Source of the DNA: the human T2T-CHM13v2.0 reference genome, Homo sapiens
Strand: one strand, 5' to 3'
DNA: 64,000 nt
Assembly: GCF_009914755.1 (NCBI RefSeq)
Contig: NC_060925.1
Shown in pieces: positions 43,557 through 49,805 of the stretch (the stretch's first letter is position 1; each line of letters starts with the position of its first letter). The notes beneath the pieces were generated by a model. The model did not search any database. It was not told where the DNA came from and saw only the letters and a list, made by a program, of their open reading frames with translations. A program made the position numbers and the translations under genes.

Positions 43557-43581
43557 CCATCTGTTGAATCTTCAAGTCCAG
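43557..43581 (+). CDS. MIER1: MIER1 first common exon, 25-nt microexon (PSVESSSP-G)
   Basis: Strong pyrimidine tract ttttcctcttttctccccttctcag| and donor CAG|gtaagt. Confidence 0.93.
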
Positions 43582-47248: not shown

Positions 47249-47906
47249 TAATACCAATATTTTCTGGTGCTTCTGAAAGGGCACAATGATGTTAAGTGCT
47301 TTGCCATGTGACCTGGCTTGCATTCACTCGTCTTAGTACATAGACTCTCCTTAAGTATTCTTTGAGGCAGTATACTAAAATAATTTACAGGAGGCTTGGA
47401 GTCCAGTAAAAGCATAGGTGTTAGGATTAGTATACCCAGGATTCAAATTCCGTCTTTGCCATCTACTGGCTTTGTAAGTTTAGACTTGCTACTTGAAATC
47501 TCTAAGCCTTGAGTTTTTATTTTTTTTTTTCCTCTTTAAATGGGATGATAATACCTACTTCGTAGGATTATTTGAAGATTAATTGAGATAATGTATATGA
47601 CATGCTTGAACATAGTATCTGGCATATGGTAAGCACTCAAAAAAATGATTCTTTTGAAAATTATTGTGAGTAACTGAAGAACCCTAAGCTTTGGGCATTC
47701 CCTTATTCATAATAGTCGGATTTTCAAGAAGTCAGCTCTATCTCTTTGCTTTACTTATTGTTTATCTTTCTGGAGTGAAATGAAAGAATAGGTACATCTA
47801 TTAATGTCTAACCATCAACAGTTAAAACTTTAAAAATTGTTAATTTTTTCAATGTTCAGTAACTCATTTGTTTATCAGTAAACAATGCTTTTGCAAATCT
47901 AGGTCC

Positions 47907-47981
47907 ACATTGGCAGTAGTAAAACTTGGGGATATTTTACATAGTCTGTAAAATATCCCCAAGTTTTACTACTGCCAATGT
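47907..47981. repeat. Perfect 35-bp inverted repeat with 5-nt spacer
   Basis: acattggcagtagtaaaacttggggatattttaca - tagtc - tgtaaaatatccccaagttttactactgccaatgt. Confidence 0.97.
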
Positions 47982-48243
47982 AGTACAATATTTTACAGAC
48001 AATATTTTACAGACTGTGTATGCCCAGCCTTTGCATTCTACTATTACAAAGCTTGACCCTATAGGGTCCAGCAATATTCCCCAACCACATGTCAGTTAGA
48101 CATGTTTATTAGACTAGATTATTTTTAATGCCTTTGATAGGAGTTCTCTATGCAGTTTTAATAAATTTTGCTCTTCTACTCAGTCTTTGGCGTTATTTCT
48201 GATCAAAATCCACTAAGTTAAGGACAGCTACTCAAATATTAGA

Positions 48244-48552
48244 TTTTTTTTTATTTATTTTTTATTTTTTAAAGTCAGGGCCTTGCTCTGTCTCCCAGGC
48301 TGGAATGCAGTAGTGTGATCATGACTCACTGTGGCCTTGACCTCCCTGGCTCAGGCACTTCTCCTGCCTTAGCCTCCTGAGTAGCTGGGATGACAGGCAC
48401 ACAGCACCACACCCAGCTAATTTTTAAATTTTTTGTAGAGACGGTGTCTCATTATGTTGCCCAGGCTGGTCTCAAACTCTTAGGCTCAGGTGATCCTCCC
48501 TTCTTGGCCTCGTGAAGTGCTGGTATTAAAGCATGAGCAACTACATCCAGCC
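48244..48552 (-). mobile_element. Alu (AluJ-like)
   Basis: Antisense Alu consensus. Confidence 0.9.

Positions 48553-49610: not shown

Positions 49611-49805
<195 letters not shown>

What the first reader, a model, noticed from the sequence alone, without database searches (positions are those of the whole stretch)
47907..48015. Perfect 35-bp hairpin created by a fold-back/template-switch insertion; pre-miRNA-sized
Seen in sequence: arms 47907-47941 and 47947-47981 are exact reverse complements with a 5-nt loop, in unique intronic sequence. Two tandem copies of aatattttacagac follow (47987-48014). The inverted copy (47943-47981) also covers the bases gact, which on the forward strand now occur only after the last tandem copy. 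Inference: the ancestral allele was ...ggggatattttacagactgtg..., and a recent multi-step template switch (MMBIR/TMEJ-like) inserted the inverted copy. The result is a 75-nt perfect stem in MIER1 pre-mRNA, a candidate Drosha/ADAR substrate or a cruciform/fragile site.
Basis: partly seen in the sequence, partly recalled or inferred. Interest (0 to 1): 0.7.

Follow-up and report, generated by a model that had tools for sequence, protein, structure and literature searches.

The report
Template-switch hairpin in MIER1 intron
A 70-base insertion that copied the neighbouring DNA backwards created a perfect 35-base-pair hairpin inside an intron of human MIER1; it is a clean example of a known type of copying error, and nothing found here shows that it has a function.

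Summary
Arms 47907-47941 and 47947-47981 are exact reverse complements with a 5-nt loop, followed by a perfect 14-nt tandem repeat (2.1 copies, 47985-48014). No other short-spacer inverted repeat in the 64-kb window comes close.

The surrounding ~250-bp block (47846-48172) has exactly one other copy in this genome, on contig C22. It is itself an insertion into an old dispersed repeat, so it acts as a fossil snapshot of the chr1 sequence before the event.

Both arms carry the chr1 state at all 7 sites where the C22 copy differs. The inverted copy was therefore made late on the chr1 lineage.

The inverted copy extends to 44 nt with one mismatch, at 48016, where it agrees with the C22 copy. That implies a 4-nt microhomology at the switch and one later substitution. 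The event is probably millions of years old, not necessarily human-specific.

It is not a MITE. Nothing supports a miRNA function: the loop is too short, no Rfam family reaches threshold, and the published base rate is 0.9%. Primate orthologues, human variation and RNA data could not be checked.

The parts
47846..48172 (+). Block with a single paralogue in the genome (contig C22). It is the native sequence in which the event happened.
   Evidence: With the insert left out, 219 of 254 aligned bases are identical to L003:1494-1761 (K2P 0.153). The adjacent chr1 flank 47666-47845 has no dispersed matches.
47907..47941 (+). Left arm, which is the original sequence used as template.
   Evidence: It is homologous to the C22 copy, with 7 of 35 differences.
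47942..47946 (+). Loop TAGTC. It is the spacer in inverted orientation and is part of the inverted copy.
   Evidence: The reverse complement of 47938-47981 matches the pre-insertion template over 44 nt with 1 mismatch.
47947..47981 (+). Right arm, the inverted copy of the left arm. The whole inverted copy runs 47942-47981, or from 47938 if the 4-nt microhomology TACA is counted.
   Evidence: It is absent from the C22 paralogue.
47982..47987 (+). Six bases, AGTACA, with no convincing template.
   Evidence: The greedy tiling explains them only with 4-7-nt snippets, which is not significant.
47985..48014 (+). Perfect tandem duplication of the 14-nt unit ACAATATTTTACAG, 2.1 copies. AC is shared at the unit boundary.
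   Evidence: The unit includes the new junction ACA|ATATTTT, so the duplication came with or after the main event.
47942..48011 (+). Net 70-nt insertion (equivalently 47932-48001). It is bounded by the 10-nt direct repeat ATATTTTACA at 47932-47941 and 48002-48011.
   Evidence: There is a 70-column gap against the paralogue. Direct repeat D3 has a spacing of 70. The insert tiles with 6 greedy local segments, against a mean of 14 and a minimum of 12 in 300 shuffles.
48016..48016 (+). G that was probably A when the inverted copy was made, so one substitution since the event.
   Evidence: One search shows the single mismatch at template position 40. One search shows that the C22 paralogue has A at this site.

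Best explanation
This is a neutral mutational scar: a 70-nt insertion templated from local sequence, produced by several template switches of a DNA polymerase in the chr1 lineage.

Inferred sequence of events:
1. Synthesis of the + sense strand reached ...ATATTTTACA (47941).
2. The 3' end TACA paired with TGTA 6-9 bases ahead on the strand of the same sense. This is an inter-strand switch.
3. The polymerase copied that strand backwards for 40 nt. This produced the inverted spacer (the loop) and the right arm.
4. It returned, with 6 unexplained bases, to a point 10 nt upstream of where it had left. That re-copied ATATTTTACA.
5. A 14-nt slippage with AC microhomology added the tandem copy.

The product is a perfect 35-bp stem with a 5-nt loop, transcribed as part of a MIER1 intron.

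Shown: the anatomy, the insert-free paralogue and the late timing. Inferred: the enzyme and setting (replication fork, break-induced replication, or polymerase-theta end joining), the order of the steps, and the lack of function.
For: Anatomy.

Insert-free relative: the only other genomic copy of the block lacks exactly the 70 nt. A 24-mer from the block, searched with up to 3 mismatches, found 3 places: chr1, C22 and one on C4. The C4 place has no homology in its flanks. The reversed-pattern control gave 0.

Direction of copying: the C22 copy is itself an insertion into an old dispersed repeat. I fetched 8 copies of that repeat. The 5 in which blast found both flanks were aligned, and 5 of 5 run straight across the place where C22 holds the block. 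The other 3 (L013, L014, L016) matched one flank only and were left out. C22 is therefore a derived snapshot of a chr1-like donor.

Timing:
- At all 7 of 35 arm sites where C22 differs, both arms carry the chr1 state.
- One of these sites is CG in C22 and CA in chr1, which fits CpG decay on the chr1 lineage before the event.
- The 44-nt inverted copy has a single mismatch, and at that site it agrees with C22. This removes any need for an untemplated base and gives TACA/TGTA microhomology.

Structure before and after: the C22 stretch homologous to the hairpin site folds at -19.8 kcal/mol, z = -1.37, with 18 of 200 shuffles as good. The window hairpin folds at -58.9 kcal/mol, z = -15.25.

The kind of event is documented. 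PMC10710096 (abstract and passages) reports 53,666 putative template-switch mutations on the human lineage. Of these, 31,007 form new RNA stems and 6,054 are of miRNA size. PMC5453318 (passages) describes inter-strand switches that invert the spacer.
Against: - No orthologous outgroup was available. The ancestral state rests on a paralogue that is 14% diverged.
- Six bases (47982-47987) are unexplained.
- In the four-point model, the order of switch points here puts the return point upstream of the departure point. PMC5453318 says that this type was not observed among single switch-and-return events. The event therefore does not fit the simplest catalogued form and needs extra steps.
- The polarity at 48016 rests on parsimony at one site.
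- If repeated intra-hairpin conversion keeps the arms identical, the timing argument weakens.
- Lack of function is a default based on base rates, not a measurement.
Confidence: 0.82

Rival explanations
1. The hairpin with its flanking 10-nt direct repeats is ancestral to the block. The C22 copy lost it by slippage between the direct repeats, a deletion route that hairpins favour.
For: The 70 nt are bounded by a perfect 10-nt direct repeat (D3). Deletion between those repeats would give exactly the C22 junction.
Against: The two paralogues differ at 7 of 35 arm sites, yet the two chr1 arms are identical. All 7 changes would have to fall on the 35 nt of C22 and none on the 70 nt of the chr1 arms. 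Under equal rates the probability is (1/3)^7 = 4.6e-4. The CG (C22) versus CA (chr1) site indicates a chr1-lineage change that is present in both arms.
Confidence: 0.03
2. The insert is a tiny palindromic mobile element (MITE-like) that landed with a 10-bp target-site duplication.
For: On the surface, the 60 nt between the direct repeats end in 13-16-nt inverted termini (I3: 47941-47956 / 47988-48003, 94%) and are flanked by a 10-nt direct repeat.
Against: The own-genome search with 47800-48120 gave 4 matches: the locus itself, its own palindromic reverse match, and the two halves of the insert-free C22 copy. There was no other copy of the arm. The 'element' carries 35 nt identical to the sequence beside its target, including chr1-specific states. 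A transposon would not. The tool warns that very common words are skipped, but the same tool found 66-77% identical old repeats.
Confidence: 0.01
3. The insert has the same origin but has been taken up as an RNA element: a young intronic miRNA or endo-siRNA precursor, or a double-stranded site for ADAR or other dsRNA-binding proteins in MIER1 pre-mRNA.
For: - It lies on the sense strand of a MIER1 intron, between exons 43557-43581 and 49648-49793 (hub annotation table).
- The stem is exactly the preferred 35 bp (PMC10710096, abstract section).
- Template-switch hairpins have given rise to at least 18 human miRNAs, mostly in sense introns (same paper).
Against: - The apical loop is 5 nt, against 10 nt or more preferred.
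- The stem has no mismatches or wobbles. The paper says these help processing and that most real loci (105 of 111) acquired further mutations after the event.
- By eye there is no CNNC within 39 nt downstream and no UG at the basal junction. These motif rules are recalled, not checked in a paper.
- No Rfam family reaches its gathering score. The best hits are MIR6019 at 46.4 bits against 100 and mir-4798 at 43.7 against 75. The hits are to unrelated plant and animal families and on both strands, so they score a generic hairpin.
- The base rate is 57 of 6,054, or 0.9%.
- A paper search for a MIER1-hosted miRNA returned 4 papers, all on circRNAs by their listing.
Confidence: 0.04
4. The structure is private to, or an artefact of, this one assembly (a rare allele or a fold-back assembly error) rather than a fixed human feature.
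For: Only one haplotype was available. No other human assembly or variant catalogue could be consulted.
Against: The forward copy has acquired a substitution relative to the inverted copy (48016). This is not expected for an artefact or a very young allele. About 0.04 changes are expected in 1 million years over 88 sites at 0.5e-9 per site per year (hand calculation; the rate is recalled). The insert also contains structured extra steps, not a simple read fold-back.
Confidence: 0.05

Closest known systems
Short-range template-switch mutations that create hairpins (four-point model of Loytynoja and Goldman 2017, PMC5453318; Monttinen et al. 2023, PMC10710096)
   Same: - The reverse-complement copy of adjacent sequence appears in one step and makes a perfect stem from unstructured sequence.
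- The spacer is inverted, as expected for an inter-strand switch.
- The site is an intron, on the sense strand.
- The stem is of miRNA size.
   Different: - It is a net 70-nt insertion, not a replacement.
- The return point lies upstream of the departure point, which causes the 10-nt direct duplication. PMC5453318 reports that order as unobserved for single events.
- There are also 6 orphan bases and a 14-nt tandem duplication, so at least three switches are needed.
- The locus was not found in the supplements I could search, and that search was incomplete.
Polymerase-theta end joining / synthesis-dependent MMEJ with templated insertions (PMC4912351, PMC5728401; search listing and abstracts only)
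   Same: - There are repeated rounds of microhomology annealing, short synthesis and dissociation.
- Inserts are copied from flanking sequence in direct and inverted orientation.
- Microhomologies are 2-4 nt (TACA, AC).
   Different: - A simple snap-back on the same strand would leave the spacer in its original orientation, whereas here it is inverted.
- From recall, a 40-nt copied tract is long for such insertions.
- No break or deletion scar is visible, and no bases of the pre-insertion sequence are lost.
Canonical primary miRNA hairpins
   Same: The stem is 35 bp, lies in an intron and is transcribed with its host gene.
   Different: The loop is 5 nt, the stem is fully perfect, no known family matches at threshold, and no expression evidence is available.
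Short inverted repeats / cruciform-forming non-B DNA (PMC12562434, passages; PMC5737083, listing)
   Same: It is a perfect inverted repeat with a 4-8-nt spacer, the class linked to local indels and mutability in spacers.
   Different: The arm length of 35 nt is far out in the tail. The catalogue of 5,243,326 repeats has a mean arm of 7.12 nt and considered arms only up to 25 nt.

Membership tests
Template-switch mutation (four-point model) | The new segment is the reverse complement of nearby sequence at the same locus. | tested here: met
   44 nt with 1 mismatch, and 35 nt perfect within the stem.
Template-switch mutation (four-point model) | A related sequence representing the ancestral state lacks the segment. 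| tested here: met
   the C22 paralogue lacks the 70 nt. Searches show that C22 is the derived copy of a chr1-like donor. A paralogue was used, not an orthologue.
Template-switch mutation (four-point model) | It is explained by one switch and one return, with the return point not upstream of the departure point. | tested here: not met
   the return is 10 nt upstream (order 3-4-1-2), with 6 orphan bases and a 14-nt tandem copy. PMC5453318 did not observe this order. It works like a template switch but is a multi-step variant.
Canonical pri-miRNA | Stem of about 35 bp. | tested here: met
   The criterion is from PMC10710096.
Canonical pri-miRNA | Unstructured apical loop of 10 nt or more. | tested here: not met
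   The loop is 5 nt.
Canonical pri-miRNA | Match to a curated miRNA family. | tested here: not met
   every hit is below its gathering score, on both strands and to unrelated families.
Canonical pri-miRNA | Mature ~22-nt reads with defined ends, and Drosha/Dicer dependence. | not testable with these tools
MITE / small DNA transposon | Multiple dispersed copies of the element. | tested here: not met
   there is no copy of the arm or insert other than the locus itself.
MITE / small DNA transposon | Terminal inverted repeats flanked by a target-site duplication. | tested here: inconclusive
   (I3, D3): the pattern is present. However, it follows automatically from an inverted local copy plus a direct re-copy, and the 'termini' share sequence with the 'duplication'.
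ADAR / dsRNA-binding substrate | Stable intramolecular duplex of about 30 bp or more in a transcribed RNA (threshold recalled). | tested here: met
   predict a 35-bp perfect duplex. The hub annotation table places it in a sense-strand intron.
ADAR / dsRNA-binding substrate | Observed A-to-I editing or protein binding. | not testable with these tools
   No editing or CLIP data are available.

The most novel reading that the evidence does not exclude
The site may be a recurrently unstable spot that is also a newborn RNA element. Three things bear on this:
- The same ~250-bp stretch first donated a copy that was pasted into an old repeat on contig C22.
- It later suffered a multi-switch fold-back insertion.
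- Its differences from the paralogue cluster around the template region: 13 of 49 sites against 22 of 205 elsewhere, Fisher p = 0.009. This comparison was made after seeing the data.

The resulting perfect 35-bp duplex in MIER1 pre-mRNA could already be bound, edited or diced as a species- or clade-specific regulatory hairpin.
Probability: 0.04. Interest if true: 0.45.

Novelty: new member of a known kind. Interest (0 to 1): 0.2.

Why it matters
The finding mainly serves as a worked example. The pre-event state of a template-switch hairpin can be recovered from within a single genome, because an older pasted copy of the same sequence survives elsewhere.

It also documents a multi-step, insertion-type event whose switch order the simple four-point catalogues did not observe. 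Such events may be under-counted.

If the hairpin turned out to be processed or edited, it would add one more case of a gene-like RNA element born in a single mutation. The published base rate (0.9%) and the short loop make that unlikely.

As DNA, a 35-bp perfect inverted repeat flanked by 10-nt direct repeats is a plausible site for deletion polymorphism.

Tried and rejected
- Rfam at permissive E-values, twice. Only sub-threshold hairpin-shaped hits on both strands were returned, so I rejected them as family membership.
- The third 24-mer hit, on C4. I rejected it as chance because blast found no homology in its flanks.
- The outer 32 nt of the 67-nt inverted repeat. It shows 18 of 32 matches by eye, so I treated it as AT-rich noise.
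- Greedy tiling of the insert. It is thrown off by the single mismatched base at 47942 and does not explain AGTACA. I kept it only as a comparison with shuffles: 6 segments against a mean of 14.
- Cis snap-back priming. It would leave the loop in forward orientation, so I rejected it as the sole mechanism (sequence).
- Retrotransposition as the origin of the C22 copy. There is no clear poly-A or poly-T tail at either end. I left this open.
- Supplement searches for MIER1 or for coordinates beginning 66944, 67409 or 67410. These GRCh38 and GRCh37 places are my own estimates from recalled gene starts, not checked.
  - PMC10710096, file 2 only: no hit.
  - PMC9435742: file 1 and files 13-22 were reported as not searched; no hit in what was searched.
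  - PMC5453318: file 1 was not searched; no hit.
  - These negatives are weak.
- One own-genome search failed on the machine. I repeated it successfully.

Full report
**1. What is in the sequence**

Positions 47907-47941 and 47947-47981 are exact reverse complements over 35 nt, separated by the 5-nt loop TAGTC. The pairing ends exactly at the arm ends.

A perfect tandem repeat follows at 47985-48014. Its unit is ACAATATTTTACAG, period 14, 2.1 copies.

The hairpin folds far better than shuffled controls:
- As RNA, 47897-47991 folds at -58.9 kcal/mol, z = -15.25, with 0 of 200 shuffles as good.
- The 161-nt context folds at -68.2 kcal/mol, z = -10.87.
- As DNA, 47900-47990 folds at -39.4 kcal/mol, z = -14.41.

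Among the 24 inverted repeats with a spacer of at most 30 nt in the whole 64-kb window, this one stands alone. The next best have arms of 31 nt at 71% or 22 nt at 82% complementarity. In a published catalogue of 5,243,326 short inverted repeats in the human genome, the mean arm is 7.12 nt, and arms longer than 25 nt were not even considered (PMC12562434, passages).

According to the hub's annotation table, the site lies in the MIER1 intron between exons 43557-43581 and 49648-49793, on the sense strand.

**2. A fossil of the pre-event state**

I searched the window's own genome with 47800-48120. There were four matches:
- the locus itself;
- its own palindromic match on the reverse strand;
- two adjoining pieces on contig C22.

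The reciprocal search gave only the same pair of loci. A 24-mer from the block, searched with up to 3 mismatches, found chr1, C22 and one place on C4. The reversed-pattern control gave 0. The C4 place has no homology in its flanks.

The block 47846-48172 therefore has exactly one paralogue at this sensitivity. The same tool recovered old repeats at 66-77% identity, so it is not blind to diverged copies.

With the insert left out, the two copies share 219 of 254 aligned bases (p-distance 0.138, K2P 0.153). The C22 copy has a clean 70-column gap where the window holds 47932-48001, or equivalently 47942-48011. It reads GGGG followed directly by ATGTTTTACAGAATATA.

**3. Which copy is derived**

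Both flanks of the C22 block belong to an old dispersed repeat, with 81 and 25 matches. Many of the 81 are a local ~40-nt tandem array just upstream on C22.

I fetched eight copies of that repeat. Blast found both flanks in five of them. In the alignment of those five, all five run straight across the place where C22 carries the block. The other three (L013, L014, L016) matched one flank only and were left out.

The C22 block is therefore a ~260-bp piece pasted into an older repeat. On chr1, the 180 nt just upstream of the block have no dispersed matches, so the chr1 copy looks native. C22 is best read as a snapshot of the chr1 sequence, or of a lost third copy, taken before the hairpin existed.

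**4. Insertion, not deletion**

The 70 nt are bounded by a perfect 10-nt direct repeat. Deletion in C22 is therefore mechanically possible.

However, the paralogues differ at 7 of 35 arm sites, and both chr1 arms carry the chr1 state at all seven. If the hairpin predated the split, all seven changes would have to fall on C22's 35 nt and none on the 70 nt of the chr1 arms. The probability is 4.6e-4 under equal rates.

One of the seven sites is CG in C22 and CA in chr1. This is the pattern of CpG decay on the chr1 lineage, and it is present in both arms.

The insert is also made of local sequence. It tiles with 6 greedy local segments, against a mean of 14 and a minimum of 12 in 300 shuffles.

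**5. Anatomy of the event**

The reverse complement of 47938-47981 matches the pre-insertion template (47907-47941 continued by 48012-48020) over 44 nt with a single mismatch. At that site the forward copy now has G (48016). The inverted copy implies A, and C22 has A.

The most parsimonious reading is that 48016 was A when the copy was made and changed later. The base at 47942 is then templated. The switch used a 4-nt microhomology: TACA at the 3' end pairing with TGTA a few bases ahead.

The loop is the reverse complement of the spacer. This is the signature of an inter-strand switch rather than a same-strand snap-back (PMC5453318, legend of its Figure 1).

After the inverted tract come three further features:
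- six bases, AGTACA, with no convincing template;
- a return 10 nt upstream of the departure point, which duplicates ATATTTTACA;
- a 14-nt tandem copy whose unit spans the new junction, so it came with or after the main event.

In the four-point notation the order is 3-4-1-2. PMC5453318 says that orders in which point 4 precedes point 1 were not observed among single events. This is therefore a multi-switch, insertion-type relative of the catalogued events. It is compatible with break-induced replication or with polymerase-theta-type iterative synthesis (PMC4912351, PMC5728401; listing and abstracts only). I cannot tell these settings apart from sequence.

**6. Age**

There is one difference in 40-67 duplicated site pairs. 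I assumed rates of 0.5-1.0e-9 per site per year, which are recalled figures. The most likely age is then about 7-25 million years, with 95% limits from about 0.2 to over 40 million years.

Relative to the paralogue divergence, the copies are 10-16% as diverged. 'Late' is therefore supported. 'Recent' in the sense of human-specific is not, and sharing with some apes is quite possible. No primate sequence, second human assembly or variant catalogue was reachable.

**7. Function**

*Before and after.* The C22 stretch homologous to the hairpin site folds like random sequence (-19.8 kcal/mol, z = -1.37). The structure was created by the event.

*Published base rates.* PMC10710096 (abstract, introduction and passages) reports 53,666 putative template-switch mutations on the human lineage. 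Of these, 31,007 form new RNA stems and 6,054 are of miRNA size. Only 57 of the 6,054 (0.9%) are annotated miRNAs.

*Fit to miRNA features.* The same paper quotes a preference for a 35-bp stem, which is met here, and an apical loop of 10 nt or more. Here the loop is 5 nt. It also notes that mismatches and wobbles help processing, and here there are none.

*Flanking motifs.* By eye there is no CNNC within 39 nt downstream and no UG at the basal junction. Those motif rules are recalled.

*Family matches.* Every Rfam hit is below its family's gathering score, falls on both strands and belongs to unrelated families. A paper search for a MIER1-hosted miRNA returned four papers, all on circRNAs by their listing.

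*Other possibilities.* A 35-bp perfect duplex could in principle bind ADAR or other dsRNA-binding proteins. As DNA it could extrude a cruciform or be deleted between its direct repeats. None of this could be tested here.

**8. Verdict**

The template-switch origin is supported by an independent internal control. The MITE alternative is rejected. Recency and function remain open.

This is a new, well-resolved example of a known kind of mutation, of low to moderate interest.

Noticed in passing
L003:1494-1761 (G000:C22:49408187-49408467): A ~260-bp copy of the MIER1 intron block sits as an insertion inside an old dispersed repeat. 5 of 5 aligned copies of that repeat lack it. There is no clear poly-A or poly-T tail, and both junctions are T-rich. 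It may be a templated patch or a small duplicative transfer.
   Followed up: partly
G000:C22:49405293-49407818 (upstream of the paralogue): The first ~50 bases of the C22 upstream flank match dozens of places spaced about 40 nt apart over ~2.5 kb. This indicates a minisatellite-like tandem array next to the paralogue.
   Followed up: no
window 48055-48068: GACCCTATAGGGTC is a perfect 14-nt palindrome in the window. The C22 paralogue reads GACCTTATTGGGTC, which is imperfect at two symmetric positions (48059, 48063). It cannot be decided without an outgroup whether chr1 gained the palindrome or C22 lost it.
   Followed up: partly
window 47907-48025 (insert excluded): Differences from the paralogue cluster around the template region: 13 of 49 sites against 22 of 205 in the rest of the block (Fisher p = 0.009, a comparison made after seeing the data). 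This is unexplained and could be chance.
   Followed up: partly
window 48270-48417, minus strand: There is a sub-threshold match to metazoan SRP RNA (39.8 bits against 70), next to a T-rich run at 48243-48271. It is consistent with an Alu element in reverse orientation and fits the masked stretch 48232-48512 in the hub annotation table.
   Followed up: no
window ~47515-47665: This stretch matches about 20 dispersed loci at 73-87% identity, so it is an old interspersed repeat fragment. The 180 nt between it and the block have no such matches.
   Followed up: no
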